Positions 8,624-31,575 of a stretch of 32,000 bases of DNA are shown here, in pieces. Source of the DNA: Thermodesulfobacteriota bacterium (GTDB taxonomy: Bacteria > Desulfobacterota > WTBG01 > JAGOGO01); NCBI GenBank assembly GCA_026625185.1, contig CP113000.1, forward strand, positions 975,622-1,007,621, read 5' to 3'. How positions within the stretch are numbered: position 1 is the stretch's first letter; every line of letters starts with the position of its first letter. Position numbers and translations under genes: made by a program. The notes below the pieces were generated by a model. That model had not been told where the DNA came from. It did not search any database and saw only the letters and a list, made by a program, of their open reading frames with translations.

Positions 8624-9202
8624 TCATATTGATTTTATATAAAATCGAGACCACAAAATAATCAATAAAATTCCTATGGTAACATAAATGATATAGAAAA
8701 TGCCCTTAGGCTTTTTAAACTTTATTTTTGACACAAAAAGAAATGCCAGAAGAACCATCGACGCCCTAGTAATCCAGACAACAATTTGCAGTCCAAGAAA
8801 AAAGTAAGAAATTAGAATTAGGGGTAGGAAAAGCGAGACAAATGTCACGGGAATACCCATGAAATATTTTTTCTCTGATGGGAGGGTGTTAAAGACTGCA
8901 AGGCGCCAGATTGCACAACTTACATAAATTAATGTTATAAGGGTATCAATTATTATATTTCCCCCCAAGTTAATAAGAATGAATACCGGGAGAATTCCAA
9001 AACTCACAACATCTATCAAACTGTCCAGTTCTTTTCCAATTGCACTGTTATGAACATTGATCTTTCGTGCAACGTATCCATCAAAAAGATCACATATGCC
9101 CGCTGCAATCAGGCATAAAATTGATAGCATCCAATCCCTATGTGCAAGTATCACCCCTAATAGTGCACAATAGAGTCCTATGAAAGAAATAATGTTTGCC
9201 AT
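8624..9202 (-). CDS. CDP-alcohol phosphatidyltransferase (PssA-like small type)
   Basis: DLFDGYVARK(x9)GKELDSLIDVVS matches the D-x2-D-G-x2-A-R...G-x3-D-x3-D signature, with a spacer one residue longer than the textbook 8. GKELDSL resembles Bacillus-type phosphatidylserine synthase. Polytopic, 192 aa. Headgroup specificity is not inferable. Confidence 0.8.
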   Translation of the reverse strand: MANIISFIGLYCALLGVILAHRDWMLSILCLIAAGICDLFDGYVARKINVHNSAIGKELDSLIDVVSFGILPVFILINLGGNIIIDTLITLIYVSCAIWRLAVFNTLPSEKKYFMGIPVTFVSLFLPLILISYFFLGLQIVVWITRASMVLLAFLFVSKIKFKKPKGIFYIIYVTIGILLIILWSRFYIKSI

Positions 9203-9204
9203 AT

Positions 9205-9528
9205 CTATCTTTCTTCAGCTTCTGAAGCGAATGTCCGGGCCTCAATTTCAAAAGGTATTTCACGAAATGCAGTGGATAATTTTCTATATTTAATTAAATT
9301 CTTTATACCATAATAAATATAATGCATTAACACAATAACCGTACCGTATTTTTTAAATTGAGCAAGGTGCAGAAATTCATGTCTTGAAATTTTGCCTTTG
9401 TAACCCCGACAATATATTGATTTCCCAACCACGATGTATTCAATATTCATTTTCTGCGGGAACCAGTGCTTTTCTTTAACATTGAAGTCGACACCTTCTT
9501 TAAGGTAAATATTATATTTTGATTTCAT
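9205..9528 (-). CDS. small HExxH (zincin-like, DUF4157-like) protein
   Basis: 107 aa. VVGKSIYCRGYKGKISRHEFLHLAQF followed by EIEAR resembles the HExxHxxQ ... ExEA pattern of DUF4157-type minimal metallopeptidase domains. The start shares 1 nt with the upstream stop (TAATG). Confidence 0.4.
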   Translation of the reverse strand: MKSKYNIYLKEGVDFNVKEKHWFPQKMNIEYIVVGKSIYCRGYKGKISRHEFLHLAQFKKYGTVIVLMHYIYYGIKNLIKYRKLSTAFREIPFEIEARTFASEAEER

Positions 9529-10802
9529 TATTCAGCCTTGTAGGTAGTGTCTCTTTGTCTTATTCCCATTCTTTTAAAAATATCTATTGGCTCCATTTTT
9601 GTTACTTCCTGCCATAATGCAAATGTTCTATATTTGGGTAAAGGAAGAAAAGGTGAATTATTAATAGCGTCACTAAGTACATGTACAAGGCACTCTCTGA
9701 CCGGATGCCTGCAATATGGAATAAATTCATTCCAGATCGTCCTAAACCTTTGCTGCATTATATTTCCTATAGCTGTTTTCAAAAGTACGCAGGGTTGAAC
9801 ATTGCCTTGTGCATCAATGTATACATTCTGACCTGAGGTGGCCATACAACCAAAGTTATAGGGTTCTTCATTATACCAAGGCATTACAATGGCTATCTTT
9901 CGTTTGCTCCTGTTTTGTATTTTATAATAGTCAATCAATAATTGCTTATCTTCTTTAGTGAGAAAAATAGTCTTATCTCCTGATTCTTTGGCTCTTCCAA
10001 CCGGTCTGATTTCATTGATTTGAATTGAATGAGCCCCCAATGATTCGGCAAAATCAACCATCTTGAAAATGTCCCCTGAGTTGACCATCCCGCTTGTTGT
10101 GCAGCATACAACGGAATTATAGATACCCAGCGCAGAGGATTCTTTTATTGCTTCACAAGCGCTTTTAAAGGCAATGTTATTTTTCCGCTGCTGATTGTGT
10201 ATTCTTTCATCATAATGATCGAGGCTTATACATATACCCTCAAGTCCTGCCATTTTGAGAATCTTTAATCGCCTGTTGTCTGCCCCAACACCTGAAGTGA
10301 AGATCCTGGTATCCATATGATCTCTTGTGTACCTGATAAACTCCGTGAGATCATCAAAGCGACAAAGGGGCTCTCCACCTACAAAAAACATAACAGTAAA
10401 ATCAGACTTAATTATATCATCAATCGTTTCAAAAATTTTTTCTTTGGGTAAATCCTTATGAATATCCTGAGTATTTTTTACGTGACAATGAAAACAATTG
10501 TTTGGGCATATGTTAGTTATGGATATCTGAGCATGGTTCGGCTTTAAAGGATACTGGTCCACACTGTTGTTATCAAGCATTTTATCATATCGAGGGCCGG
10601 GAAAGTATGGCGCAAATGGGTCAATGAAGTACTTGCTGGCTACTTTTGAATATTTGGTGTCTTTAAAAAGGGAAGATATTATCACTTGTTTTTTGAGCAC
10701 ATAGAGGAACCTGCGGACAGATATTCTACAAGACAGTAGCTTTAAAAGATTGTGCCTTAATACATACCACATCAACCTTGCTTTAAATAACGTCCTTTTC
10801 AT
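9528..10802 (-). CDS. radical SAM enzyme with partial SPASM/twitch-like C-terminal motif
   Basis: CPNNCFHC (C-x3-C-x2-C) at about residue 99. C-terminal C-x13-G-x4-C (CMATSGQNVYIDAQGNVQPC) followed by C-x6-C. About 85 aa of basic N-terminal extension precede the core. Confidence 0.85.
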   Translation of the reverse strand: MKRTLFKARLMWYVLRHNLLKLLSCRISVRRFLYVLKKQVIISSLFKDTKYSKVASKYFIDPFAPYFPGPRYDKMLDNNSVDQYPLKPNHAQISITNICPNNCFHCHVKNTQDIHKDLPKEKIFETIDDIIKSDFTVMFFVGGEPLCRFDDLTEFIRYTRDHMDTRIFTSGVGADNRRLKILKMAGLEGICISLDHYDERIHNQQRKNNIAFKSACEAIKESSALGIYNSVVCCTTSGMVNSGDIFKMVDFAESLGAHSIQINEIRPVGRAKESGDKTIFLTKEDKQLLIDYYKIQNRSKRKIAIVMPWYNEEPYNFGCMATSGQNVYIDAQGNVQPCVLLKTAIGNIMQQRFRTIWNEFIPYCRHPVRECLVHVLSDAINNSPFLPLPKYRTFALWQEVTKMEPIDIFKRMGIRQRDTTYKAE

Positions 10803-11866
10803 ATCGCCATAGGTTCCGTTGTTTTAGTTGTATTCATTCTCCTACCGAAATTCTGTTTTGTTGCAAAGTCCAGCAAGTCGTGTATCCACTGTTCTGTAAT
10901 TTCCTCAGGAGCTTCATACTCCATACCCAACCGTCTTACTGTTGAGGATACATCAAACATTTCTTCCTGTGTAAGATAAGGCAAGAAAATACGTGTTTGC
11001 TTATCGAAAAGCTTCTGCAAATATCCAGTTCCATTGTCTTTTTTTATCGGCAAACTACTTGAACAATCGAAATAATTGATTCCATTTATGTTCATATAAT
11101 CGAATATTAGTTTTAATACCCACGATGTTAAAGGTGGCGCAGGATGGGTGATATAATATATCTCTCCAAATGTGCCGAGACCAATTAGGGAAAGCAACTG
11201 GGAGACGACCCAGTCAACAGGCACAATATTTATTGTGGATGTGGATGAACATGGTACTGAGATAGGTAGTTTCACTGGGTTGGAAATTTTTTTTCTCTGG
11301 CGTAGACTTTTGGCTATGAAATATGGAACCATAGCATATCCGTAAAATCCATTAAAACCGTTAATAGCACAGCTCTTTCTTTCGCCAACGATGACTCCCA
11401 GACGATATATATTGTACGTTAGCCCTGAATTCATCACTAATTTTTCAGCAGCGGACTTACTTATTTCATAGGGGTTTCTCTGAAATGGGGCATAGGCAGT
11501 TGAAATGAAATGCAGATCTGGGATATTAAGAGTTTTTGATAGATTTATTATCCTTTCAGTTCCGCCCTTATTTATATTCCAGGTACGCTTATAGTATTTA
11601 TCGTCAAATTTCACAGCGCTTGCGCAATGTAATACCATATCTATATCGACTGACTTAAGAATGGAAAGGCTTGAATCTGAAAGGCCCAGGTTTTCTTTTT
11701 CAAGGTCGCCTTCAAATAGGTGATCCGGGGGAACGCCAAAACCGAAAAATTTGTCAAACCTTTGCTTGACATTACGAACCAGGGCGTATACTTCATGATG
11801 TAATAATAAAGATGAAATAAGGTGACTCCCCAAGATACCTGTCATTCCGGTCAACAATATCTTCAT
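10799..11866 (-). CDS. extended SDR, thioester-reductase / fatty-acyl reductase-like (NAD_binding_4-like)
   Basis: MKILLTGMTGILGSHL (TGxTGxxG), HCASAVKF, and YEISKSAAE (Y-x3-K with the SK..AE context seen in terminal reductase domains). 4-nt overlap with the next gene. Confidence 0.65.
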   Translation of the reverse strand: MKILLTGMTGILGSHLISSLLLHHEVYALVRNVKQRFDKFFGFGVPPDHLFEGDLEKENLGLSDSSLSILKSVDIDMVLHCASAVKFDDKYYKRTWNINKGGTERIINLSKTLNIPDLHFISTAYAPFQRNPYEISKSAAEKLVMNSGLTYNIYRLGVIVGERKSCAINGFNGFYGYAMVPYFIAKSLRQRKKISNPVKLPISVPCSSTSTINIVPVDWVVSQLLSLIGLGTFGEIYYITHPAPPLTSWVLKLIFDYMNINGINYFDCSSSLPIKKDNGTGYLQKLFDKQTRIFLPYLTQEEMFDVSSTVRRLGMEYEAPEEITEQWIHDLLDFATKQNFGRRMNTTKTTEPMAI

Positions 11867-11868
11867 GT

Positions 11869-12666
11869 TTATCCTGCCTCGTAAAGAGTGAACATGATAA
11901 CCGCCACCGGTCCAAGAATAATCATGCTGTCTAATCGATCCAGCATCCCTCCTTGGGCGCCCATGATCTGTGAAAAATCCTTTATTCCAATCCTCCTCTT
12001 TAGAACACTTGAGCTGGCGTCTCCAATAAATCCACAGGTAAATATAACAACAGCATTCAACAAAATAAGGTAAAAAGGCAGACTGCTCAGATTAAAAACG
12101 TGATAGAAGCTTATCGAAGCTAAAATGCTGAATATGAATCCTCCTATAAATCCGCTCCAGGTCTTGTTGGGGCTGACCAGAGGAAATAGTCGTGGTCCTT
12201 TTAAGCTTTCTCCAACTACCTGCGAAAAAGTGTCGGACACTGACAACACAAAGAGCAAAAATATTAATATTTTATAATTTATCAAAAAGGATAAGTAGAT
12301 ATAACTGGATGCAGCGATAACCGCTATGACTATGCCGGATGCAATCCCGATCGTCTTTTTTAAAGATCCGAAGGTGCTTTCTGCTATTTGATAGATAAAC
12401 TCAAAAAGAGCAACGCTGAATATGGCTATAATAAAAATTATGTAAAAATTCCTGAAGAATATTATGGAAAAGATCATAATCAATTGAAAAGCAAGATACC
12501 TTTTAAGCTTTGCTTTTAATGAGCCTTTGCCACCCTTTTCCAAGGCTAATATATTAAGGTAACTTTCTGCAAACCATCTCAGCCCTTTACTTATGAGAAA
12601 AGCTCCGACAGTCCAGGTAAAAAGAAATAGAAGATAATAAAATAAAAAATGTATTTTATAATCCAT
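11869..12666 (-). CDS. phosphatidate cytidylyltransferase family protein (CdsA-like, variant signature)
   Basis: SPNKTWSGFIGG and SVLKRRIGIKDFSQIMGAQGGMLDRLDS match the CdsA signature as I recall it, except Q where H-G-G normally has His. Polytopic membrane protein. Confidence 0.8.
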   Translation of the reverse strand: MDYKIHFLFYYLLFLFTWTVGAFLISKGLRWFAESYLNILALEKGGKGSLKAKLKRYLAFQLIMIFSIIFFRNFYIIFIIAIFSVALFEFIYQIAESTFGSLKKTIGIASGIVIAVIAASSYIYLSFLINYKILIFLLFVLSVSDTFSQVVGESLKGPRLFPLVSPNKTWSGFIGGFIFSILASISFYHVFNLSSLPFYLILLNAVVIFTCGFIGDASSSVLKRRIGIKDFSQIMGAQGGMLDRLDSMIILGPVAVIMFTLYEAG

Positions 12667-13570
12667 TGAACTTTTCCGGCACCCTCATATTAAGCGCTCC
12701 CTTGTGGCAGCAAAGGTCCCAATGTTCCGATTCAGGGATAACTTCACCATCCCCAAAGGCTGGTACTCTTTTATTATAATAAATACTTATCTTATTGACT
12801 TCCTGCCTACACTGATATCTGTCTTTACTACTGAGTCCCATCTTAATCTTTAATAGGGAATACAGCACAGATTGACAACTGGGATTTTTAAAGAGCAAGA
12901 AATGAAACAATCCATCCGTGGCTTTGGTTCCTGGTGCGACAACGATATTCTTGCCTATGCTTGCTTGGTTTGTAAAAACGCAGGCATGGCTTATATAGTC
13001 CCGAACATCTTCATTATCTGTTATCCTAAAAGAACATGTATTGTTACGAGCAAAAATGGAATGCCACACGAGCAACAGTGAGTATATTTTGTCTCCGGTA
13101 AGCTTCATGAGTAAGGTCCACTTGTGTGATTTCTTTAAACGGTTTGCATTGTCTGCCACCAAAAAGCCCAGGCCAAAGCCCCCTCCAGATACAACATGCC
13201 GTCCATTAGCACTAATGGTGTCATATTTGATTGTTTTTCCATTTTCCAATTGATCCAATGATTTTAAAGGATTCAAAAACAAACCGACCCAGCGGGCAAA
13301 ATCATTGGCGGTACCTGCGGGCACAAGGTTAATTTCTACCGGTTTATTTATTAGATGCTGAATCGTGTGATGTAATGTTCCATCTCCTCCAATAATCAAT
13401 ACCTTACTTACCTCATCTAAAAAGGTGAGCCATCCCGGGCAAGAGATATCTTTGGGTTGCAGAGAATAAAATATCACATCTCCCCAATGTAAGCGTCCTT
13501 TAAGACGGTTTGCGATATCTATGTTCTTAACCGAGCTTACAGCAAGATTATATAAACACAATGTTCGCAT
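12656..13570 (-). CDS. lipid kinase, diacylglycerol-kinase catalytic domain family (YegS/LCB5-like)
   Basis: IIGGDGTLHHTI and PAGTANDFAR motifs. 304 aa, soluble. Confidence 0.8.
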   Translation of the reverse strand: MRTLCLYNLAVSSVKNIDIANRLKGRLHWGDVIFYSLQPKDISCPGWLTFLDEVSKVLIIGGDGTLHHTIQHLINKPVEINLVPAGTANDFARWVGLFLNPLKSLDQLENGKTIKYDTISANGRHVVSGGGFGLGFLVADNANRLKKSHKWTLLMKLTGDKIYSLLLVWHSIFARNNTCSFRITDNEDVRDYISHACVFTNQASIGKNIVVAPGTKATDGLFHFLLFKNPSCQSVLYSLLKIKMGLSSKDRYQCRQEVNKISIYYNKRVPAFGDGEVIPESEHWDLCCHKGALNMRVPEKFNGL

Positions 13571-13588
13571 ACGATTAAGTCTAAAAAT

Positions 13589-14536
13589 TTATACTTTTTT
13601 TAGAATCACGGTTTGCATCGATAAGTTAAGATATTTTTCAAACAGCAGAAAAGGTGCCAGAAATAGTTGCCCGGTAAAATACGGCAAAATTGCCTTCTTC
13701 AAAGTCAAGCCTTTGCCCTTAAGCATCTTGAATGCTGCTCCCGCAAATAGATAGAAATAGGCCGGAAAGGCCCCGTAGGCAAGATAATCTACAAGATCGA
13801 ACCCCTCTTTCTTCACTATTTCGAGAAGATGTTTTTTTGAATACAATACTGTGTGTTGTGGTGACTGAACGCCCGGCCAGCGCGATCCGTAAAGTTTGTA
13901 GGTAAGGCTGTCAAGTCTGGGTACTTCAATAATAAGAATTCCTTTATCCTTCAAGCATTCTTGCGCTTTTTGAAGAGATTCCCGTGGGCGGTAGTCATGC
14001 TCGAGGAAATGCCACATGGTAATTAGGTCATACGAATACGCAGGTAATTTCTGTTCATAAAAAAGGCCCAGATGAAAATCAATCTCATTGAAACCTGGGT
14101 AATATGTGGTATCCTTGAAATCAACACCAACAATACTGCAATGGTATGTTTTTTTTAACAGGAGGAGAAATGTTCCAACAGAACATCCCACATCAAGCAC
14201 ACATGAGTCGGAATTTAGTCTAACATAAGGTTCAATAAGCTTGATTTTGTCCCTATCGTGTTTTCCCATCGCCCAGCTATATAAAGGACTCAAAGGACCT
14301 AATTTTTCATTCTTACGATGGGCAATATAATCGTCCGTATAAAAACGTTTAACCTCATCGATACTTAACCTTGGATTCTGATATATCAAACCGCAAGAAC
14401 GACATCTGACGAAAATAAACCTACCCGGCATGCCTGTTAAATCATCCTCAGCAGTCAAAAAATAATCGGATTCAGTGCTTCCACATAGGTAGCAACAAAT
14501 ATTTTCTGTTTTATAATCTAGTATTAATTTTTTCAT
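13589..14536 (-). CDS. class I SAM-dependent methyltransferase with N-terminal Cys4 zinc ribbon
   Basis: CYLCGS...CRSCGL ribbon, then motif I VLDVGCSVGTF and an acidic post-I loop (GVDF). Confidence 0.75.
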   Translation of the reverse strand: MKKLILDYKTENICCYLCGSTESDYFLTAEDDLTGMPGRFIFVRCRSCGLIYQNPRLSIDEVKRFYTDDYIAHRKNEKLGPLSPLYSWAMGKHDRDKIKLIEPYVRLNSDSCVLDVGCSVGTFLLLLKKTYHCSIVGVDFKDTTYYPGFNEIDFHLGLFYEQKLPAYSYDLITMWHFLEHDYRPRESLQKAQECLKDKGILIIEVPRLDSLTYKLYGSRWPGVQSPQHTVLYSKKHLLEIVKKEGFDLVDYLAYGAFPAYFYLFAGAAFKMLKGKGLTLKKAILPYFTGQLFLAPFLLFEKYLNLSMQTVILKKV

Positions 14537-14549
14537 TATTTCCCGTTAT

Positions 14550-15335
14550 TCAGCCCGATATAGCCAACAAACACAGATATATCACTCCATTGGTAAAAGG
14601 TATAAACTTAAGATTTCGAACCCTTTCATATTTTATTGTCAAGAAAAATAAAGCTATGCAAAGGGATAGGAGACCCCATTTTATCCACTCAGAGGGGTTA
14701 CCGTGGTAATTTAGAATTATATGAGAGGCAAAGCCAATCGACAGGAACAACCAGGCGATAAAACCAGCTTTTAAATAATTCATGTCCGAGAGGTGCTCCC
14801 GGTCATGAAAGGTTTCATAAACGAAGAGAATTAAGTAAATGATTATTAGTGGTAATATTTTTTCTCTAAAAGGTGCGCTTTCAGAAGAAGTAATAAAAGC
14901 AATTACCGGATATTTTATCAGGATAAAAAGGTCGAACATGAGAGGATGCAGTTTCTCTCGTAGAAAATAGATAAGCATAAAGAACAGTGCAAAAATAAAA
15001 GCAATTATCAGTATGGAGATATTATGTAATTTATAAATTATGAAAAAAGACATAAGGAATATAATAAATAACCACTTCCAGAGAATTAATGCATTACCAG
15101 GATTGACGGTAACCCTGTTCGGTGAAGTCTTTCGATCTTTCTTGATTGAGCAGAGATCATCCCAGAGGCGCAATCCCAAAAGCAGCAACAATGCGGAAGC
15201 AAACCTTACAAAAATATCAAATTTATTAGTAAGATGTTGAATAGAAGTTTCGCTACCTATTGATAGAAGAATTCCTAACGGGATAAAGAGGAAAAGATTG
15301 AATCGTTCTTTAAAATATTGAACTATAAGAATCAT
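14550..15335 (-). CDS. polytopic membrane protein, possible divergent UbiA-superfamily member
   Basis: About 8 hydrophobic segments. RLWDDLCSIKKDRKTSPNRVTVNPG sits where UbiA enzymes carry NDxxDxxxD...R.xNRPLxxG, with Ser in place of the middle Asp. A second acidic patch is YETFHDREHLSD. Confidence 0.35.
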   Translation of the reverse strand: MILIVQYFKERFNLFLFIPLGILLSIGSETSIQHLTNKFDIFVRFASALLLLLGLRLWDDLCSIKKDRKTSPNRVTVNPGNALILWKWLFIIFLMSFFIIYKLHNISILIIAFIFALFFMLIYFLREKLHPLMFDLFILIKYPVIAFITSSESAPFREKILPLIIIYLILFVYETFHDREHLSDMNYLKAGFIAWLFLSIGFASHIILNYHGNPSEWIKWGLLSLCIALFFLTIKYERVRNLKFIPFTNGVIYLCLLAISG

Positions 15336-17998
15336 ATTACCTCTTCAAGAAAAACAACCGATCTATCTGCATCAAGCAAAACCCGCTGACCGTCTATTAA
15401 TCTGGTTGTAGCATCCTTTACTCCCACCAAGGTCGGAATCCCATATTCTCTGGCAATTATAGCCCCGTGAGAAAGCATCCCTCCTCTTTCAAGAATAAGT
15501 CCAGAAATTATTGGAAATGCTGGTGCCCAGCCAGGGTCGGTTTGCTTGGTCACAAGTATATCTCCCTTCTCAATCAAACCAATGGATGTTATGTCTTTAA
15601 CAATCCTTGTCCTTCCTATAACCCTGCCCTCACAGGCGCTGTACCCGGTTAAGAAACATTTTTCTATTTCCGGAACTTTCCCGATCTCCAAGGGATTGTT
15701 CTTTTCGGAGGAATAGTACTCTCCTGCAGGCAGGCGAAAACTTTCCGGCGGGGACGATTTCACATCATCTGAATATTTATTCTTCCTCTGTCTGATGACC
15801 TCCCTTATCAGAACCGGAAGGTGACATGCCGACAGATTTTCTATTTCAGAGTATTTTAAGAACAGGGCATCTTCAGCATTCTGAATAAGATGCTTTTTCT
15901 TGAAAATGGTGCCCAAGGCAAGCAAAGAATGTCTGCACTGGTTATAAAGCCTGGCTTGTTTCAATCTCACCCTTTCCCGGTATCTGATACCTTGATGTGC
16001 CAAAAAGATTGAGAACCTGATAATTATTTTGCGATATAATCCTGTTAACACCCCACAGTCTTTCCCAGCGTGTTCCAGTATCTGCTTGGTAACTTCAATC
16101 CTTCTATGGATCTGCGTTTTTAATTGTTCCTCCGGTGAGTGAAAAGGATTTTTCAAATAGCTTTTGAGAAGATCTATTAGTTTCTCTGGTGCTTCATTAT
16201 AATCCGCACGCGTTAAAAGTAATTCCCCTGAAATACGGTATCCCCATTTCTTCTGATACTCCACAAAGGCTCTGTGAAAATCATCGAACTCTTCCCCTTG
16301 AGTCAACACAGACATTATGTTTTTAGGATCATTTTCACCAAATAACCTATATAAACCGTAATTGTTCTTGATCATTTGGGTGAGCTCCCAAAATCTCTGA
16401 GGCGGCTCATGACTCACCAGATTTGGTATTCCAACGAGCAATTGATGAACATTTGTTGATCGTGATCGGGCGTATGTCTCCACAGAAGAACGAAGTAAAC
16501 CATACCCGAACATGGCAAGAGCGTCCGCAAGAGAGGCGTCTTTCCACTTATGCATACGAATATGAATAAAATTCATAATATCTGTTTTATATCTGTTTAC
16601 GTCATGCTCCTTCTCAGGGGAATTGCATTCTTTAAAATGAATGTCGGCTTGTTTTTCAAACCTTTTAACATATAGGGGAAGACACAAAATATGTTTTAAG
16701 GACCGAGAACCAAGCTTGAAAAAATAAAGGTATCTTGCCGGCCTGTTTTTTGACAGAAATTTATCCGGCAAATTATCATAGGGCAGGTCATATATCCCTA
16801 TAAAAGAATCCCAGTATTTCTTGGCAAGATCGGGAAAAGGCAATGCACTCAGACATTCATAAATATTGGTAAGATTATAGTACATTCTACTTTGATGGAA
16901 ATCGATTATGGTTTCAAAGGCTGGCTCTAACTTTTTGCGGACCTTGCGACTGACCCCAAGCAATCTAGCCAAATTTCTGAAATAGTGATAATATCCATTT
17001 TTTGCAAACGACATAAGAAATGGAGTAAGCGCTTCAGGAAAATTTTCATTCACATTAACATTGGACCATAAACAAGACGCATCGTTTTTCTGATTCTGCG
17101 CGGTTACCGGCCTGGATTGAAGTAACCATAACTTTTTTGATTTATCAATGGTCCACTCTATATCTTGTTGCCTTCCGGTATTCTGTTTAGCATCTTTGGC
17201 GATAGCAACAAGATTCTTAATATTCGCAATCTGAGTGTCGAGAAAACCATTTCCGTTGTTTCCCGCAGAAGAACCGGCAATTCTCAATCCCGCAGCTTCA
17301 TCATAAATCAGAATCTGCTCAGGGTTTTCCCTTCCGCCTACAAGCTGTTCTCCGGCGCCCCTGACATATTCGAGTACTAATGGTTTATTTCCGTCCTTCC
17401 GGATCTGGGAGAGAGGATGGGTGGTAAATAACACACCTGAAAATTCCGACTGAATATAAGGTTGCACGATAACCGACATGCCGCCTAAAATTGTGTTACG
17501 GTTACACTGATAACTGATGCTTTTTGATTTCCAATAAGACATCCAGCACTGAAGAAGAGCGTCATGACAGGCGCTCTCGAATTTCTTTTTACTGTCCGTT
17601 ACTGCAGAATCTAGTTGCCCCGCAAAGGAGTTCTCGTTGGAGTCCTCTCCAATGGCTGAGCTACGGAATATCAATTCTGATTTTCCAAACACTTTTTTGA
17701 TGGCTTCATAAATATCACTGAATAACGAACTCTCAATTCCTTTCTTGAGAAGAGCATCACACAATTTTTCAGAATACCTCATGACTGAGCGGATGTCATT
17801 CAAATTTTCATCATTGTCATGAACCTCGGCAAGAGCCTTCTTTGAATAATCCTCAAAGGCCTGTGTACCAATTATCAATGTCTTGGGTATAGATATTCCC
17901 ATCCTATTTAAGGTGTATAATGACTCTGCTTTTCCACCTGTTATGTGGGACGATTTTACCTTTGAGAGAGGAAAAGAATATTTGATTTTTTTATTCAT
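15332..17998 (-). CDS. PEP-utilising-enzyme family phosphotransferase with rifampin-phosphotransferase-like architecture
   Basis: N-terminal PPDK_N-type ATP-grasp (GGKAESLYTL...QDIEWTIDK..LWLLQSRPVT), about 450 aa of helical middle region, and a C-terminal swivel domain (TDPGWAPAF...ERGGMLSHGAIIAREYGIPTLVG). Start moved to MNKKIKYSF (ATG at 17998), which overlaps the upstream stop as ATGAATAA. Confidence 0.75.
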   Translation of the reverse strand: MNKKIKYSFPLSKVKSSHITGGKAESLYTLNRMGISIPKTLIIGTQAFEDYSKKALAEVHDNDENLNDIRSVMRYSEKLCDALLKKGIESSLFSDIYEAIKKVFGKSELIFRSSAIGEDSNENSFAGQLDSAVTDSKKKFESACHDALLQCWMSYWKSKSISYQCNRNTILGGMSVIVQPYIQSEFSGVLFTTHPLSQIRKDGNKPLVLEYVRGAGEQLVGGRENPEQILIYDEAAGLRIAGSSAGNNGNGFLDTQIANIKNLVAIAKDAKQNTGRQQDIEWTIDKSKKLWLLQSRPVTAQNQKNDASCLWSNVNVNENFPEALTPFLMSFAKNGYYHYFRNLARLLGVSRKVRKKLEPAFETIIDFHQSRMYYNLTNIYECLSALPFPDLAKKYWDSFIGIYDLPYDNLPDKFLSKNRPARYLYFFKLGSRSLKHILCLPLYVKRFEKQADIHFKECNSPEKEHDVNRYKTDIMNFIHIRMHKWKDASLADALAMFGYGLLRSSVETYARSRSTNVHQLLVGIPNLVSHEPPQRFWELTQMIKNNYGLYRLFGENDPKNIMSVLTQGEEFDDFHRAFVEYQKKWGYRISGELLLTRADYNEAPEKLIDLLKSYLKNPFHSPEEQLKTQIHRRIEVTKQILEHAGKDCGVLTGLYRKIIIRFSIFLAHQGIRYRERVRLKQARLYNQCRHSLLALGTIFKKKHLIQNAEDALFLKYSEIENLSACHLPVLIREVIRQRKNKYSDDVKSSPPESFRLPAGEYYSSEKNNPLEIGKVPEIEKCFLTGYSACEGRVIGRTRIVKDITSIGLIEKGDILVTKQTDPGWAPAFPIISGLILERGGMLSHGAIIAREYGIPTLVGVKDATTRLIDGQRVLLDADRSVVFLEEVI

Positions 17999-18767
17999 AT
18001 GAAACATTGTGCATCTTGTTATGAAACTCAACAAAAATATCCCTTACCATTTTCCTGTTCTTATCAAGATCATCAAGAACCCATTTGCTGGTCTCTACTT
18101 CCGGCAGAATGTAAACATCCACATGGCCACCCAAAGTCCTATAACCCCTACCCGGATCTATTTCCGATGGTATGTAAATATAAATCGGAACAATTGGTAC
18201 CTTCATATTGGTCGCTAGGTGAAACGCACCTTTATTGAATTTTGATATTCTTCCCGTTGTGGTAACTGCGCCTTCAGGAGAAAGGATCACAGACTCTCCG
18301 GTCTTACGCAATTTGACTTCTGCACGTTTAAAACATTCAGTCCTCTTTCTTGGTTTGTGTTGCTGGTCAATCAGAAATGTCCCGATAAAAAAGTTTATTA
18401 TGGTGACGGGAATATATTTATAGGTCGCTTTTGACATAAAGTACCGCGTATTATTGAAGCCGATCGCCGGTAAGAGCACCACATCAATAGTGGAGGTGTG
18501 ATTAATCACATATATTTTCTGTGAATTTGACAAATCGTCCTGATGATGAACGGTATAGGTAATGCCAAACATCCGCAAAATCATCGCGCAACCGGGACGG
18601 ACAATATACCGGCAACATATATTTCTTAGCTTAAAAAAGGTGCTGATTTGAAAAATTGCAACGATAAAGGCAGTGATAAACAATACGGTTACTGCTGAGG
18701 GAATAAGGATCAGCAAACGCACAGGGAATTTTCTCTTTGCTTTTTTATCAGGCTTTGCAGCGATCAT
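17991..18767 (-). CDS. lysophospholipid/glycerol-3-phosphate acyltransferase family (PlsC-like) with N-terminal TM anchor
   Basis: NHTSTID (H-x4-D) and SPEGAVTTTG (PEG block). GGGAG lies 8 nt upstream of the ATG. First gene of the ten-gene unit. Confidence 0.8.
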   Translation of the reverse strand: MIAAKPDKKAKRKFPVRLLILIPSAVTVLFITAFIVAIFQISTFFKLRNICCRYIVRPGCAMILRMFGITYTVHHQDDLSNSQKIYVINHTSTIDVVLLPAIGFNNTRYFMSKATYKYIPVTIINFFIGTFLIDQQHKPRKRTECFKRAEVKLRKTGESVILSPEGAVTTTGRISKFNKGAFHLATNMKVPIVPIYIYIPSEIDPGRGYRTLGGHVDVYILPEVETSKWVLDDLDKNRKMVRDIFVEFHNKMHNVSYE

Positions 18768-19040
18768 AAATCGCTCCCGTGAAACAGGTGTGTCTCATAC
18801 CCATTTTGCATCAAGGTCGTCAGTTAACTATTTGACAGAGTCCCCCTCGCTGGATATTGGCGGCAAAGTTCTCGGTTACCCTAATAATATATCTTCCCCA
18901 AAAATTACCACTGCCACCTCTGTATTTCAACGAAAATATTGTGCTCATCATTTACATCAAAAAATTTGCCGGTATGGTTACAGGGGCATTATTGAAAAGA
19001 TGGAGGCATTCTGTCTGTCGCTTTAATGCAAATTAATTAC

Positions 19041-19118
19041 TTAGTCATTTTCAGCAAATTTCTAGGTATTTTATATCATAAATACCACCTTTATTCTGCT
19101 TGCGCACAAAATCGCACC
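19041..19118. repeat. repeat A, copy 1 (~80 bp, near identical to 25389-25468)
   Basis: TTAGTCATTTTCAGCAAATTTCTAGGTATTTTATATCATAAATACCACCTTTATTCTGCTTGCGCACAAAATCGCACC. It differs from copy 2 by two substitutions and a 2-nt A-run length change, by eye. Confidence 0.9.
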
Positions 19119-19245
19119 ACCGTTAAAAAGAACTAGAAACCATGTTAATATGGCAACCCTTTTTTAACCGAAACATTCTTATATCCTTTCCTCCGCAAGA
19201 TTCCGGATAATTCTTCTTAACCTGAACTATCCAACGGTTAAACAG

Positions 19246-19261
19246 TGCAATGGCCGTGCCA
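19246..19261 (-). promoter_or_regulatory. sigma-54 (-24/-12) promoter, copy 1
   Basis: The minus strand reads TGGCACGGCCATTGCA, a perfect TGGCAC-N5-TTGC(A) element. Confidence 0.7.
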
Positions 19262-19278
19262 GGGCGCGGAGATATTTA

Positions 19279-19291
19279 TAACTAATTGATT
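19279..19291 (-). promoter_or_regulatory. IHF-like site, copy 1
   Basis: The minus strand reads AATCAATTAGTTA, which fits WATCAANNNNTTR. It lies 17 nt upstream of the -24 element. Confidence 0.35.
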
Positions 19292-19369
19292 ATTAATTAT
19301 TTTATGCAAAAACTCGAATTAGGCTTTGAAAAGGAGGGGAATTTTAATGTTCACAAAAAGCACTATGCT

Positions 19370-19386
19370 TATACAAAAAATGTATA
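19370..19386. promoter_or_regulatory. palindromic upstream activator site candidate, copy 1
   Basis: TATACA-AAAAA-TGTATA. Its centre lies about 119 bp upstream of the -24 GG. Confidence 0.55.
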
Positions 19387-19508
19387 GCTATGAGGTGTTT
19401 TCTGAAGGGAGTCGCCCGGTATTTTTAAGCAGGGTTCACGGGGCAGGGAAGACTGAGGAGGGCATACCAAAAGCAAAATGAGGATTTTTAGCTTTACCGC
19501 TTGCTCCC

Positions 19509-19646
19509 TCACAGCTTCTTGAGCTTTGCCGGTACTATCGTCTCCCTAAGCAGCTTTTCCACCCCTTCTGCACCTACCCGATTACGCCATCTCGCCAGTG
19601 AGCTCGGGTCTAAGGGAAACTCATGTTGAAAATACACAACGGGTGC
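19509..19646 (-). pseudogene. IS5-like (DUF772-type N-terminal domain) transposase remnant
   Basis: The minus-strand frame, bounded by stops, reads APVVYFQHEFPLDPSSLARWRNRVGAEGVEKLLRETIVPAKLKKL. The YFQ.EFP.DPSSL.RWR.R.G..G.E.LL..TI pattern is typical of the N-terminal region of IS5/IS1182-type transposases. There is no start codon and no DDE domain. Confidence 0.5.
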
Positions 19647-19847
19647 TTACGGTTTATCATCTGTTCTAAGCGGGATCTAAACAAATCCTTTTGTCCGCTT
19701 GATTTCATCCTTTTCGGCATCAAAAATCACCAGCTTTTGAAGGGTTAATTACCCTTTTCTGGTGAATATATTATGTTTTTTCCCTAATTAAAACGAATTA
19801 TATCAATCTGTTAAACGTTTTTTCAGGAGCGACTATTTATAAAAAAT

Positions 19848-19874
19848 TTGACAAGAAAAATATTTATATATAAT
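19848..19874 (+). promoter_or_regulatory. candidate sigma-70-type promoter for the BCR/HGD-family operon
   Basis: TTGACA (19848-19853) and TATAAT (19869-19874) with a short 15-nt spacer. Alternatively TAATTT at 17 nt. About 90 nt upstream of the GTG at 19961. Confidence 0.4.
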
Positions 19875-19960
19875 TTATATGTGTTGAACAAAATCGTATT
19901 AACTTTACAGTTAACTAACTTTTCTATAGTCATATCAACTTAATAAAAGGAGGTCTAATT

Positions 19961-21082
19961 GTGGCAATCGAGGAATTAATACGGATTGGTGAAACTATAT
20001 ATAACAAATATATTGATGATTGGAAAAAAGAGGGGAAGAGAGTTATTGGGTACACTTGCAGTTATGCGCCTGAAGAGATCCTGCAAGCCGCCGGTCTTCT
20101 GCCTATTAGGCTCAAGGCCATTGGTTCCAGCGAAACCAGTAAGGCAGACGTGTATATGCCGAAATTCCACTGCACTTTTTCAAGGCATCTGTTGGATCAG
20201 GGCATGTCTAATGCCTTTGATTTTGTTGATGGGATTGTCTTTGTTAACTCATGCGACCAGCTAAGACGAATGTATGATGTGTGGAATAAGCTTGTAAAAT
20301 TTCCATATCAAACCATTATGGTCATGCCCTATTCCTACGATAAAGAGGATTTTGAATGGTACCTGGAGCACGAGGTTAAGAAGCTTAAGAGCGACCTGGA
20401 GACAGCTTATGGGGCAAAAATTACCGACAGCTCGTTAAGCGAGTCAATAAACATTTTCAACGAAACCAGAAACCTTCAGGCCAGATTGTATGAAATGAGA
20501 GGCGCAAAAGAACCCAGAATCAACGGGGTGGACACCCATAAGATCATCACGGCTGCAACCTCTATGCCCAAGAAAAAATACAACGAATTGCTGAAAGCGT
20601 CCCTCGAGGAGCTGAAAAAGAGGCCGGGTATTACAGATTACCGGGCCCGCATTCTCATCGGAGGAAGCATGATAGATGAGCCGGAATTACTGCAGGTTAT
20701 CGAGGATGCCGGGGGTCTTGTGGTTGCAGACGTGTTGTGCACCGGCACCAGATGGACCACGGATAAAGTGGAAACGGACGGTGACCCCCTTTACGCCATT
20801 GCCAAACGATATTACGATCATCAACCATGTCCAAGAATGACCATGGTTTACGAGCGAAAACGTGATTTTGTACTGGATCAGGCAAAGAAAAATCAGGTGG
20901 ATGGGGCTATCTTTTCCAAAATCGCCTTTTGTGATCATCATTCTGGAGACAATGTTCTTTACCAGGAGGATCTTGAGAAGGAGGGTATTCCATCTTTGCT
21001 GCTGGATAGAGATTACAGGATAACCGACGTGGGCCGATTCAGGACAAGAATCGAGGCCTTTTTTGAAAAACTTGGTAAATAA
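19961..21082 (+). CDS. BCR/HGD-family subunit, small HGD-D-type (BcrC/BzdN/HgdB-like)
   Basis: 373 aa. GYTCSYAPEEIL..AG..P, VNSCDQ, and the C-terminal DGAIFSKIAFCDHH block are typical of 2-hydroxyacyl-CoA dehydratase / benzoyl-CoA reductase core subunits. GTG start 7 nt after AAGGAGG. Confidence 0.75.
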   Translation: MAIEELIRIGETIYNKYIDDWKKEGKRVIGYTCSYAPEEILQAAGLLPIRLKAIGSSETSKADVYMPKFHCTFSRHLLDQGMSNAFDFVDGIVFVNSCDQLRRMYDVWNKLVKFPYQTIMVMPYSYDKEDFEWYLEHEVKKLKSDLETAYGAKITDSSLSESINIFNETRNLQARLYEMRGAKEPRINGVDTHKIITAATSMPKKKYNELLKASLEELKKRPGITDYRARILIGGSMIDEPELLQVIEDAGGLVVADVLCTGTRWTTDKVETDGDPLYAIAKRYYDHQPCPRMTMVYERKRDFVLDQAKKNQVDGAIFSKIAFCDHHSGDNVLYQEDLEKEGIPSLLLDRDYRITDVGRFRTRIEAFFEKLGK

Positions 21083-24935: not shown

Positions 24936-25060
24936 TTGCAGATTTTTACAGCAGATTAATTTTAGAAAGATTGGTGGTGTCTGATGGACGATGTCAGAAT
25001 TTTCTTTGAGCAAAATCTAGAGGATTTTGCTGATTGACCCGCCCAGCGTTTCCGCCCCCT

Positions 25061-25096
25061 TTGCCCGCTTCTCGGGCGAGCCGATGATTTTTTATT
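25061..25096 (+). terminator. weak hairpin plus T-run downstream of the CooC-like gene
   Basis: TTGCCCG-CTTCT-CGGGCGA stem-loop (25061-25079). The T-run TTTTTTATT starts only 8 nt later, so this is not a canonical intrinsic terminator. Confidence 0.25.
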
Positions 25097-25388
25097 ATAA
25101 TACCAAATCAATCCGATTTTCAAAAGAGTTGTCTTTGAAATCCTTACTTACTTTGTCAAAATAAACCCAGCGACCGCGATAATTCCGTTCGTTATTGGGC
25201 GTGGCTACGGGACTGGGCTACGGGACGTACATGAAAATATGAATTGATATTGTGATAAGACCGGGGGAAGAAGGGGCGTCCATTAAATTATAAAATTTCT
25301 AACAACGGCGACTTATGCGTACCAACATAAACACTGTTTTTGCATGAAATAATAATATAATGGAAAAAAAATGAATTAGAAAAATTTG

Positions 25389-25468
25389 TTAGTCATTCTC
25401 AGCAAATTTCTAAGTATTTTATATCATAAATACCACCTTTATTCTGCTTGCGCACAAAAAATCGCACC
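25389..25468. repeat. repeat A, copy 2
   Basis: TTAGTCATTCTCAGCAAATTTCTAAGTATTTTATATCATAAATACCACCTTTATTCTGCTTGCGCACAAAAAATCGCACC, 52 nt beyond the stop of the last lipoprotein gene. Confidence 0.9.
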
Positions 25469-26855: not shown

Positions 26856-27043
26856 CGCTGCAATCTTCCTCCTCTTAAATGATCTTTTGATCTTTTCACA
26901 TTAAACTGCCACGCCGATTTACTTCACTGAAACCCGACCTCGATTCAGGTTTCTTTTATTCGATAAACCCTGCACCAGCCCTCATTTATAGCCCCACAGC
27001 AATCATTGTCACCCTCGACTTTCAAGTCTTTATTATAGGCCTT

Positions 27044-27439
27044 TCATTGATTGGTTTCCTGACATTCACAAACCGCTTTATCAATGCGGCTATGGAAGAT
27101 TTGATAAGCCCTATGATATTCGGTTACTGAACCTGAATCTGTGTCAGCAACTTCGGCCCATACCGGATACCTCGAATGTTTCGCGCCAGAAGGGATTCCA
27201 TACCAACCCGTGGGGATTGCAACTCCTACAAAATAACCATTGTTCTGCTTTTCCAGAATTACTGGAACTTTGCCTGACATTCCGCTCTGTTCCCATTCTT
27301 TCGCAATGCATGAAGCGACAGCATGAGATGAATGCACACTTTTGAAATTCTGTGTGGCACAACCGCATATCAAAATAAATACAAGCATCAAAGTCAATCC
27401 ACAAATTATTTTTATTTTCCTTTTTATTAAGTTTGACAT
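27044..27439 (-). CDS. small predicted lipoprotein, unknown function
   Basis: 131 aa. MSNLIKRKIK..LMLVFILICGC|ATQNF is a signal peptide plus lipobox-like Cys. Confidence 0.6.
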   Translation of the reverse strand: MSNLIKRKIKIICGLTLMLVFILICGCATQNFKSVHSSHAVASCIAKEWEQSGMSGKVPVILEKQNNGYFVGVAIPTGWYGIPSGAKHSRYPVWAEVADTDSGSVTEYHRAYQIFHSRIDKAVCECQETNQ

Positions 27440-27480
27440 TTTATTTTTCTGCCTTCATACGGAGAGGAGTTCCAATGCGC

Positions 27481-28881: not shown

Positions 28882-28961
28882 TTTTTTTACCTCCTTTCAT
28901 TTGATTTCAGAAACCAGTGGTAAAAAAAGCAATGGCCGTCCTCCGTTTACTCTCCAGGCTT

Positions 28962-29678: not shown

Positions 29679-29692
29679 ATGATTACTCCTTA

Positions 29693-29836: not shown

Positions 29837-29912
29837 TTTATTTTTCCTTTTTTCATACGCCGAGGAGTTTTAATGAGCTCACTTGTTTCTAAAGCCTTTT
29901 TTTATTCTTAGC

Positions 29913-31316: not shown

Positions 31317-31380
31317 CTCCTTTCACTCTCAAAGTTTCGGATAGTTATTTTTAACTTGAGCTACCCAATGATCGAATAAA

Positions 31381-31395
31381 GCAATTGATGTGCCA
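31381..31395 (-). promoter_or_regulatory. sigma-54 (-24/-12) promoter, copy 2
   Basis: The minus strand reads TGGCACATCAATTGC(T), a perfect TGGCAC-N5-TTGC. The predicted transcription start is near 31370, giving a ~54-nt leader to the ATG at 31316. Confidence 0.75.
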
Positions 31396-31412
31396 GGGCA
31401 CGAAGATGTTGC

Positions 31413-31425
31413 TAACTTAATGATT
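31413..31425 (-). promoter_or_regulatory. IHF-like site, copy 2
   Basis: The minus strand reads AATCATTAAGTTA, one mismatch to WATCAANNNNTTR. It has the same 17-nt offset from the -24 element as copy 1. Confidence 0.3.
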
Positions 31426-31503
31426 TTGAATAAGATTATGACAAAACCCGGATCAGACTTTGAAAAGGAAGGGGGGTTTAAGGTTCATGCAATGCACTAC
31501 ATC

Positions 31504-31520
31504 TATACAAATTTTGTATA
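31504..31520. promoter_or_regulatory. palindromic upstream activator site candidate, copy 2
   Basis: TATACA-AATTT-TGTATA, a perfect 17-bp palindrome. Its centre lies about 119 bp upstream of the -24 GG, the same spacing as copy 1. Confidence 0.55.
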
Positions 31521-31575
31521 GCACTGAGGTGTCTTCTGGAGGGAGTCGTTCGGAATGTTCCGCATGTTCACGGAA

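What the first reader, a model, noticed from the sequence alone, without database searches (positions are those of the whole stretch)
19184..19441. Second, diverged copy of the same sigma-54 module 12 kb away, pointing at the lipid operon
Seen: 19184-19441 aligns over its whole length with 31317-31573. It is clearly diverged; by eye roughly two thirds to three quarters of positions match. The functional elements are preserved at identical spacing:
- TGGCACGGCCATTGCA (19261-19246).
- A perfect IHF core AATCAATTAGTTA (19291-19279).
- The palindrome TATACA-AAAAA-TGTATA (19370-19386).
- The leader hairpin, kept with compensatory-type changes (GGATAGTT/AATTATCC here versus GGGTAGCT/AACTATCC there).

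Inference: selective retention of the half-sites, the -24/-12 elements and the spacing, while the surrounding sequence drifts, argues that both copies are functional and answer to the same activator. Copy 1 fires toward the lipid operon, whose first ATG at 18767 is about 470 nt downstream. The specialised-lipid genes and the lipoproteins could therefore form one regulon.
Basis: partly seen in the sequence, partly recalled or inferred. Interest (0 to 1): 0.75.

Follow-up and report, generated by a model that had tools for sequence, protein, structure and literature searches.

The report
Orphaned sigma-54 promoter from lost operon
The second "sigma-54 module" is real, but it is the leftover head of a lipoprotein operon whose genes have been deleted. 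An intact-looking stress-type promoter now sits 470 bases upstream of a lipid-synthesis operon that has its own conserved upstream region.

Summary
19164-19441 aligns with 31295-31573 at about 72% identity (blastn E 4e-36). Both copies carry an exact TGGCAC-N5-TTGC and an exact TATACA-N5-TGTATA palindrome 108 nt upstream.

Eight related modules from other metagenomes keep these elements and the spacing while the sequence between them drifts. It is therefore a genuine sigma-54 enhancer-type promoter.

Copy 1 is not a stand-alone regulatory module. It carries:
- the last 9 codons of a ceramidase-family gene;
- the promoter, leader and ribosome-binding site;
- an 18-codon, frameshifted, Cys-less stub of a lipoprotein signal peptide.

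The stub is fused directly to the native upstream DNA of the lipid operon. A relative shares that upstream DNA and has no sigma-54 site there; none of four related lipid operons has one. An 86-nt piece of this native DNA recurs at 93% identity just after the intact lipoprotein operon.

Copy 1 is therefore a relic. Its promoter elements are intact, and no terminator lies between it and the lipid operon, so read-through is possible but unproven. The argument from selective retention is weak, because most of the divergence probably dates from when both promoters served genes.

A third module lies just outside the window, ahead of a B12-radical-SAM/hydrolase/ceramidase operon. The same enhancer layout precedes pspABC in Hyphomonadaceae.

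The parts
19436..19465 (-). Stub of the 3' end of a ceramidase-family gene (reads MPSSVFPAP*). It marks the 5' edge of the relic.
   Evidence: blastn homology to L027 runs 28 nt into that locus's ceramidase gene. The C-termini compare as L026 LPSSGFPTF* and L027 LPYSGFPAS*. No further ceramidase similarity lies upstream.
19370..19386 (.). Upstream activating sequence: the 17-bp palindrome TATACA-N5-TGTATA.
   Evidence: Exact in copy 1, in copy 2 and in 8 related modules. It lies 108 nt before TGGCAC in all but one module, which has 109.
19349..19366 (-). Possible second, weaker activator site (AGTGCT-N5-TGAACA), about two helical turns (21-22 bp, centre to centre) from the first.
   Evidence: The right half, TGAA, is invariant in all nine modules. 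L004-type, Phycisphaerae and module C sequences show a clearer second palindrome at this same spacing. Inference only.
19279..19291 (-). IHF-like site AATCAATTAGTTA, centred near -50.
   Evidence: Perfect WATCAANNNNTTR. The same position is perfect in 5 of 9 modules and 1-2 mismatches off in the rest.
19246..19261 (-). Sigma-54 -24/-12 element TGGCACGGCCATTGCA. The predicted start is near 19235.
   Evidence: One of only two exact TGGCAC-N5-TTGC matches in the window. CTGGCAC and ATTGC are invariant in all nine modules.
19203..19234 (-). Leader hairpin of up to 11 pairs.
   Evidence: MFE fold. 92% of cells pair across 7 modules, and two pairs show a double change. L004, L020 and L026 lack it.
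19123..19195 (-). Decayed translation start. It holds an SD-like GGAGGAAAGGAT and ATG 19176, followed by a 17-codon ORF (MFRLKKGCHINMVSSSF*). This ORF is a frameshifted remnant of a lipoprotein signal peptide.
   Evidence: It aligns with the 5' coding DNA of L004/L018/L022 (..FAILxGFLILLNGC..). It has a 5-nt deletion, and the lipobox Cys codon is changed to GGT. Two of the three family-invariant positions lost in copy 1 lie here: SD G to T, and -2 A to G.
19035..19118 (-). Repeat T_A: the start of the lipid operon's native upstream region, joined directly to the stub.
   Evidence: 93% identical to 25383-25468. From about 19095 onward it aligns with the upstream region of the L038/L039 lipid operon.
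18768..19034 (-). The rest of the lipid operon's native upstream region. It includes a strongly conserved block at 18945-18900, a candidate for the operon's own promoter or operator.
   Evidence: 71% identity over 291 nt to L038 665-952, E 6e-30. The block is nearly identical in L038/L039.
25383..25468 (-). Repeat T_B: a copy of T_A, 50 nt after the stop of the last lipoprotein gene.
   Evidence: It is a direct repeat of T_A, and the two flank a 6,264-nt segment holding the relic and the HGD-D/BcrAD cluster.
31317..31573 (-). Copy 2: the working module ahead of the five-gene lipoprotein operon (25521-31316). Palindrome at 31504-31520, TGGCACATCAATTGCT at 31395-31380.
   Evidence: It follows an intact ceramidase-family gene, as in L026 and L027.
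8624..18767 (-). Ten-gene lipid operon downstream of the relic. The gene products are an acyltransferase, a PPDK-like enzyme, a membrane protein, a methyltransferase, a DAG-kinase-like protein, CdsA, a NAD_binding_4 reductase, a radical SAM/SPASM protein, a small ORF and a CDP-alcohol phosphatidyltransferase.
   Evidence: Pfam. The same operon occurs in relatives L034-L037.

Best explanation
Copy 1 is the orphaned head of a lipoprotein operon.

**What the module is.** In this lineage a sigma-54 promoter sits ahead of variable sets of lipoprotein genes. It has one or two 17-bp palindromes about 108 nt upstream of the -24 element and an IHF-like bend site between them. It often lies directly after a ceramidase-family gene.

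**What happened at 19.1-19.5 kb.** One such unit lost everything from codon 19 of its first gene onward. The remaining pieces are joined straight to the native upstream DNA of the lipid operon:
- 30 nt of the ceramidase 3' end;
- the enhancer and promoter;
- the leader and ribosome-binding site;
- a frameshifted signal-peptide stub.

**Shown.** The homology, the decay of the coding stub, the intact promoter core, the native origin of the DNA downstream of the junction, and the absence of a recognisable terminator.

**Inferred.** The promoter can still be fired by the same activator as copy 2. Its transcripts would then run about 470 nt through the dead stub into the lipid operon. That would add stress-linked input on top of the operon's own promoter.

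**Probabilities for the inferred steps.** About 0.6 that the promoter is still active. About 0.35 that its read-through matters for lipid-operon expression.
For: **Relic structure.**
- Copy 1 is 80% identical over 310 nt to the L027 module and 78.6% to L026. Both of those sit after an intact ceramidase gene and ahead of intact lipoprotein genes. Copy 1 is only 72.5% identical to copy 2.
- The ceramidase stub is shown.
- The stub aligns with the L004/L018/L022 signal-peptide coding DNA. It has a 5-nt deletion, has lost the Cys codon and stops early.

**Promoter core intact.**
- Copy 1 keeps 66 of the 69 positions that are invariant in the eight modules preceding intact genes. Two of the three lost positions are translation signals.
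- There is no indel in the 108-nt spacer.

**Native upstream DNA.**
- 19082-18796 is 71% identical to the upstream region of the closest related lipid operon, which has no module.
- No TGGCAC-N5-TTGC lies upstream of four related lipid operons.

**Other.**
- No terminator-like site on the - strand between 19235 and 18767.
- The same relic is present in a second sample, at 99.7% identity.
Against: - No expression data are available.
- No sigma-54 gene or activator gene is visible in the 38 kb I could read.
- Copy 1 evolves no faster than working modules (relative-rate counts 21 vs 24 and 26 vs 30). This fits either continued selection on the promoter or a young relic.
- The module pair is 72% identical but the T pair is 93%, so one simple duplication followed by a deletion does not explain the history.
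- I cannot exclude that only a roughly 340-nt operon head was ever copied here, rather than a whole operon that was later deleted.
Confidence: 0.72

Rival explanations
1. Copy 1 is a maintained second promoter whose job is to place the lipid operon under the same activator as the lipoproteins, so that the two form one regulon.
For: - The core elements and spacing are intact, and none of the 74 mismatches falls in the 22 core positions.
- No rate acceleration.
- No terminator before 18767.
- The only invariant positions lost, apart from one, are translation signals that a pure promoter would no longer need.
- The same enhancer type drives lipid-related genes elsewhere: module C in L001, and in Phycisphaerae.
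Against: - The copy carries useless baggage that marks it as a leftover: the ceramidase stub, the RBS, the ATG and the dead signal peptide.
- Four related lipid operons have no sigma-54 site. Some have a MarR gene upstream instead.
- The operon keeps its own conserved upstream block.
- Retention of the core is not significant if the relic is young.
Confidence: 0.3
2. Silent fossil. The promoter is no longer used, for example because it is occluded or because the activator concentrates on stronger sites. It simply has not yet decayed.
For: - The coding stub has already decayed.
- The second UAS half-site is weak in copy 1.
- One invariant position next to the IHF-like site is lost.
- Two strain-level SNPs fall inside the module, at 19300 and 19238.
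Against: All elements known to be needed for sigma-54 initiation are at consensus and at the family spacing.
Confidence: 0.3
3. The module now makes a product of its own: a sigma-54-dependent small RNA covering leader, stub and T (about 200 nt), or the 17-residue peptide.
For: - A strong SD-like sequence and an ATG remain.
- The T segment is unusually well conserved between its two copies, at 93%.
Against: - No Rfam match, even at E values up to 5.
- The fold is no better than shuffled sequence: z = -0.6 for the 217-nt transcript and -0.8 for T.
- No terminator to define a 3' end.
- The peptide is a frameshift product with no homologue.
- T is native lipid-operon upstream DNA.
Confidence: 0.05

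Closest known systems
Escherichia coli pspA promoter (sigma-54, PspF upstream activating sites, IHF)
   Same: - Sigma-54 -24/-12 element.
- Activator sites of 6-N5-6 geometry roughly 80-130 nt upstream.
- An IHF site in between (established knowledge; sequence read).
   Different: - The E. coli half-sites are TTAGTG/CGCTAA rather than TATACA/TGTATA.
- The targets here are lipoproteins, not psp genes.
- No PspF gene is visible near the window.
pspABC promoters of Hyphomonadaceae (e.g. Hirschia maritima DSM 19733, L014)
   Same: An exact TATACA-N5-TGTATA palindrome lies 108 nt before TGGCAC-N5-TTGC. A PspF equivalog sits next to it (TIGR02974, 467 bits against a cut-off of 443.6), and pspA/B/C lie downstream.
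   Different: The phylum differs and there is no sequence homology outside the motifs. Whether the activator in the Thermodesulfobacteriota MAG is a PspF relative is unknown.
Enhancer ahead of the B12-radical-SAM / hydrolase / acyltransferase operon in Phycisphaerae (L009, L012, L013 and others)
   Same: - Tandem palindromes 22 bp apart, lying 108-110 nt before a sigma-54 promoter.
- The radical SAM gene is 50% identical to the one behind module C in this genome.
   Different: There the activator gene is adjacent and divergent. Here no activator gene is nearby.
Orphan or fossil promoters left by gene loss, and promoter capture through deletion
   Same: A promoter with its RBS and first codons survives the loss of its gene and ends up facing the next operon downstream.
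   Different: Capture is not demonstrated here. The downstream operon keeps its own conserved upstream region.

Membership tests
Sigma-54 (RpoN)-dependent promoter | GG at -24 and GC at -12 within TGGCAC-N5-TTGCW | tested here: met
   TGGCACGGCCATTGCA at 19261-19246 is one of only two exact matches in the window. CTGGCAC and ATTGC are invariant in nine related modules.
Sigma-54 (RpoN)-dependent promoter | A conserved activator-binding site 80-150 nt upstream at fixed phasing | tested here: met
   The palindrome lies 108 nt upstream in copy 1, copy 2, L004, L016, L018, L020, L022, L026, L027 and L028, and 109 nt in L024. The intervening sequence falls to about 50% identity between subgroups.
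Sigma-54 (RpoN)-dependent promoter | rpoN and a cognate AAA+ activator encoded in the genome | not testable with these tools
   No GAFTGA-type protein in the window or in L001. The 3.3-Mb MAG is not in the searchable collections.
Sigma-54 (RpoN)-dependent promoter | Transcription starting 12 nt after the GC, dependent on the activator | not testable with these tools
   No expression data are available.
IHF-assisted enhancer | WATCAANNNNTTR between the activator site and the promoter | tested here: met
   19291-19279 is a perfect match. The site is perfect in 5 of 9 modules. The motif is loose (8 found against 2.8 expected), so this is sequence-level evidence only.
Phage-shock (Psp) regulon | pspA/pspB/pspC as target genes, with PspF as activator | tested here: not met
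   The five lipoproteins have no Pfam family, and no Psp domains were found among the window proteins scanned. Only the enhancer layout is shared with Hyphomonadaceae psp promoters.
Pseudogene / operon relic | Homology to intact genes elsewhere, plus disabling lesions | tested here: met
   The stub aligns with the L004/L018/L022 coding DNA. It has a 5-nt frameshift deletion, the lipobox Cys is changed to Gly, and it stops after 17 codons. Only 9 codons of the ceramidase gene remain.
Intrinsic terminator between the relic and the lipid operon | A GC-rich hairpin followed by a U run on the - strand | tested here: not met
   No - strand site in 18500-20100, and none after the last lipoprotein gene.
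Known RNA family (Rfam 15) | A covariance-model match at the gathering score | tested here: not met
   No match in the window. Only chance-level hits at E values up to 5 in 18760-19960.

The most novel reading that the evidence does not exclude
Deleting the lipoprotein genes was adaptive promoter capture. It fused an envelope-stress-type sigma-54 enhancer to a ten-gene specialised-lipid operon. One activator would then co-ordinate three gene sets in this Thermodesulfobacteriota lineage: the lipoproteins, the B12-radical-SAM/hydrolase/ceramidase operon and de novo lipid synthesis. The same TATACA-N5-TGTATA enhancer would mark a membrane-remodelling regulon shared across Thermodesulfobacteriota, Planctomycetota and Hyphomonadaceae.
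Probability: 0.2. Interest if true: 0.55.

Novelty: new member of a known kind. Interest (0 to 1): 0.33.

Why it matters
The finding shows how to tell a real second regulatory site from the debris of a lost operon. Here the flanks settle it: a gene-end stub, a dead signal peptide and the junction with native DNA.

If the orphan promoter is still fired, it is a natural case of an operon gaining a new stress input through deletion. That can be tested with a single RNA-seq experiment.

The wider by-product is an enhancer layout that recurs ahead of membrane and lipid genes in three phyla. It gives a handle on an uncharacterised sigma-54 regulon.

Tried and rejected
**Searches that returned nothing useful**
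- Rfam at gathering score and at E values up to 5, and tRNA/tmRNA search: nothing.
- RNA folding of the putative transcript and of the 86-nt repeat: no better than shuffles.
- The genome-contig scan with the module pattern did not return this MAG. The metagenome scan with a 22-mer from the repeat found nothing, not even the source contig. The genome-wide copy number of the module and of T therefore could not be measured.
- Homologues of the last lipoprotein gene (L032, L033) lie in unrelated contexts and have no T. Whether T normally follows such operons is unknown.
- tblastn of the ceramidase and all five lipoproteins against 18768-19960 found nothing beyond the 9-codon stub. No further gene remnants are hidden there.

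**Ideas tested and dropped**
- A PspF site like that of E. coli: the half-sites differ.
- Ancestral adjacency with the BcrAD cluster: the L038 upstream ATPase is only 40% identical to the window's, so it is not an orthologue.
- Antisense 43/44-aa ORFs called by JGI inside both modules: read by eye, they occupy non-equivalent positions and differ mostly by non-synonymous changes, so I rejected them as genes.
- A single clean history (tandem duplication, Campbell-type insertion through T, or an inversion): none fits both the direct orientation of the T copies and the 72% versus 93% identities.

**Literature**
- A search for the palindrome together with enhancer-binding proteins found nothing relevant.

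Full report
**1. Observation**

The two stretches are related. A blastn of the window against itself pairs 19164-19425 with 31295-31559 at 72.5% over 265 nt, E 4e-36. MAFFT gives the same register, with no gaps between the palindrome and the promoter.

On the - strand copy 1 contains:
- the palindrome TATACATTTTTTGTATA at 19386-19370;
- AATCAATTAGTTA at 19291-19279;
- TGGCACGGCCATTGCA at 19261-19246.

Copy 2 has TATACAAAATTTGTATA at 31520-31504 and TGGCACATCAATTGCT at 31395-31380. In both copies 108 nt separate the palindrome from TGGCAC. Exact matches to either motif occur nowhere else in the window. None of the 74 mismatches between the copies falls in the 22 core positions (P = 5e-4).

The 'compensatory' hairpin claim is only partly right. 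Between the two copies the changes are one-sided, and one pair is broken. Across seven modules 92% of cells pair and two pairs show one double change each. Three modules lack the hairpin.

**2. The module is a real sigma-54 enhancer-type promoter**

*Source.* The window is JGI contig Ga0439198_0001401. The same sequence is in an NCBI Thermodesulfobacteriota MAG. The lipoprotein family is tiny, with 12 clusters among 5.8 billion proteins, and has no Pfam family.

*Related modules.* A pattern scan of metagenomes, plus contig look-ups, returned true relatives of the module: L004/L016, L018/L028, L020, L022, L024, L026 and L027, with L003 partial. All precede lipoprotein-like ORFs. All keep CTATACA-N5-TGTATA, CTGGCAC-N4-ATTGC and the 108-nt spacing (109 in L024). 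The sequence between these elements falls to about 50% identity between subgroups. This is the selective-conservation evidence that two paralogues alone could not provide.

*IHF-like site.* It is perfect in 5 of 9 modules. The consensus is loose, with 8 matches in the window against 2.8 expected.

**3. What copy 1 really is**

Four observations change the picture.

- *(a) Nearest relatives.* Copy 1 is closer to the L027 module (80% over 310 nt) and the L026 module (78.6%) than to copy 2. Both of those sit immediately after an intact 258-aa ceramidase-family gene, as copy 2 does.
- *(b) Ceramidase stub.* Copy 1's homology to L027 runs 28 nt into that gene. Window 19465-19436 reads MPSSVFPAP*, against LPSSGFPTF* in L026 and LPYSGFPAS* in L027. 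Upstream of 19465 nothing resembles the ceramidase.
- *(c) Dead coding stub.* Downstream, homology continues through the RBS and ATG (19176) into the coding DNA of the first lipoprotein gene of L004/L018/L022 (..FAILxGFLILLNGC..). Copy 1 has a 5-nt deletion that shifts the frame, a GGT where the lipobox Cys codon should be, and a stop after 17 codons.
- *(d) Junction with native DNA.* At about 19119 the stub joins an 86-nt segment, T_A (19118-19035). T_A is 93% identical to 25468-25383 (T_B), which lies 50 nt after the stop of the last gene of the intact lipoprotein operon.

Copy 1 is therefore an operon head with no body.

**4. The DNA after the junction belongs to the lipid operon**

The lipid operon is conserved in relatives (L034-L039). 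The closest relatives are L038/L039, whose acyltransferase is 79% identical. Their upstream region aligns with window 19082-18796 at 71%, E 6e-30. It includes a nearly identical block at 18945-18900.

Most of T_A and the 267 nt that follow are therefore the operon's native upstream region. T_B is the displaced copy.

None of the four related operons has TGGCAC-N5-TTGC upstream. Their upstream neighbours differ: MarR in L036 and in a 3300075153 contig, an 85-aa ORF in L034, and a non-orthologous BcrAD-type ATPase in L038. A sigma-54 module facing this operon is thus peculiar to this genome and arises from the relic. The same arrangement is present in a second sample at 99.7% identity.

**5. Is the orphan promoter still under selection?**

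*For selection.*
- Copy 1 keeps 66 of the 69 positions invariant in the eight working modules.
- The three positions lost are one next to the IHF-like site and two translation signals: SD GGAG to GGAT, and A to G at -2.
- It has no indel in the spacer and no rate acceleration, with 21 vs 24 and 26 vs 30 lineage-specific changes.

*Against over-reading this.*
- Most of the 28% divergence between the copies would have accumulated while both served genes.
- If the relic is as young as the T pair suggests (7% divergence, about 3.5% per lineage), only about 0.8 substitutions are expected in the 22 core positions.
- The phylogenetic signal is mosaic. The 5' part is L027-like and the leader plus stub are L018-like, while the motif CCGTGAAC is shared only with copy 2. 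Tree-based arguments are therefore fragile.

My conclusion is that the promoter is sequence-competent, and that continued selection on it is neither shown nor excluded.

**6. Mechanism I commit to**

The activator that binds TATACA-N5-TGTATA can still assemble at 19386-19349. It would loop over the IHF-like bend and open sigma-54 RNA polymerase at 19261-19246.

Transcripts from about 19235 meet no terminator-like structure. They would continue through the dead stub, T_A and the native leader into the acyltransferase gene at 18767. I put this promoter activity at about 0.6 and a meaningful contribution to lipid-operon expression at about 0.35.

The operon's main control is more likely in its own conserved upstream block.

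**7. Context that bears on the 'one regulon' idea**

- *Third module.* Just outside the window (L001 2530-2670) there is a third module. It reads CCTGCA-N5-TGTATA, then a second site 22 nt on, then 107 nt, then TGGCACGGTCATTGC. It lies ahead of a B12-radical-SAM gene, an alpha/beta hydrolase gene and the ceramidase-family gene.
- *Phycisphaerae.* The radical SAM gene is 50% identical (E 7e-163) to one in Phycisphaerae. That gene lies behind tandem TATACA-N5-TGTATA sites and a sigma-54 promoter, next to a divergent unnamed activator.
- *Hyphomonadaceae.* The same palindrome at the same 108-nt distance precedes pspA-pspB-pspC, next to a PspF equivalog.
- *E. coli.* Its pspA promoter shares the 6-N5-6 geometry but not the half-sites.

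This enhancer type is therefore repeatedly tied to membrane and lipid genes. It does not show that the ten-gene lipid operon belongs to the regulon.

**8. Unexplained**

- The module pair is 72% identical but the T pair is 93%.
- T_A and T_B are direct repeats flanking a 6,264-nt segment. That segment holds the relic and the HGD-D/BcrAD cluster.
- Neither a tandem duplication, nor a Campbell-type insertion through T, nor an inversion accounts for everything. Gene conversion among the several modules that such genomes carry is the likeliest complication.
- I could not tell whether a whole operon once lay at 19.1 kb or whether only its head was copied there.

**9. Verdict**

The feature is a new member of a known kind: an activator-dependent sigma-54 promoter, preserved here as an orphan after gene loss. 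Interest is modest. It would rise if read-through into the lipid operon were shown.

Noticed in passing
L001 2530-2670 (about 2.7 kb beyond the window's right end, - strand): Third sigma-54 module in the same genome. It reads CCTGCA-N5-TGTATA, then a second site 22 nt on, then 107 nt, then TGGCACGGTCATTGC. It lies ahead of a B12-binding radical SAM gene, an alpha/beta hydrolase gene and the ceramidase-family gene.
   Followed up: partly
L006, L008, L014 (Hyphomonadaceae); L009, L012, L013, L015, L019, L023, L030, L031 (Phycisphaerae/Planctomycetota); L021/L029: The same enhancer layout occurs in other phyla: the TATACA-N5-TGTATA palindrome, often doubled 22 bp apart, lying 106-111 nt before TGGCAC-N5-TTGC. 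In Hyphomonadaceae it precedes pspABC with a PspF equivalog alongside. In Phycisphaerae it precedes a B12-rSAM/hydrolase/acyltransferase operon with an adjacent unnamed activator.
   Followed up: partly
window 19035-19118 and 25383-25468: Direct 86-nt repeats at 93% identity flank a 6,264-nt segment containing the relic and the HGD-D/BcrAD/CooC-like cluster. They are much more alike than the two modules are (72%). The history is unresolved.
   Followed up: partly
window 18900-18945 (- strand): The block GCACAATATTTTCGTTGAAATACAGAGGTGGCAGTGGTAATTT is almost identical in L038/L039. It is a candidate for the lipid operon's own promoter or operator.
   Followed up: no
L004 2539, L005 2360, L020 2266; first genes of L024, L026, L027: The gene behind the module differs between relatives: the 450-aa family, an lp131-like gene, a 138-aa gene or a 250-aa gene. 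The RBS and the first ~7 codons (M-S/P-G-L-I/R-K) stay alike, and they recur at internal genes. This suggests cassette-like shuffling of lipoprotein genes.
   Followed up: partly
window 8624-18767; L034-L037: The ten-gene lipid operon (acyltransferase, PPDK-like 900-aa enzyme, methyltransferase, DAG-kinase-like protein, CdsA, NAD_binding_4 reductase, radical SAM/SPASM protein, CDP-alcohol phosphatidyltransferase) keeps its gene order in several uncultured relatives. Some have a MarR gene upstream. Its product is unknown.
   Followed up: no
window 24936-25382 (- strand): A 450-nt non-coding gap lies after T_B. It has a near-consensus sigma-70-like site (TTGAAA-18-TATAAT, 25123-25094, 11 of 12 matches), followed by a GC-rich inverted repeat (GGCTCGCCCGAGAAGCGGGC). 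There is no Rfam match.
   Followed up: no
window 19238, 19300, 19667, 19670, 19678, 18572: Six SNPs separate this contig from a second sample's contig (L042, 99.72% over 2,170 nt). Five lie in the 1.2-kb intergenic region and one in coding DNA. Two lie in the module at non-core positions.
   Followed up: yes
window 19347-19481 (+) and 31390-31521 (+): JGI gene calls place 44-aa and 43-aa ORFs antisense inside the two modules. Read by eye, they are at non-equivalent positions and their differences are mostly non-synonymous, so they are probably not genes.
   Followed up: partly
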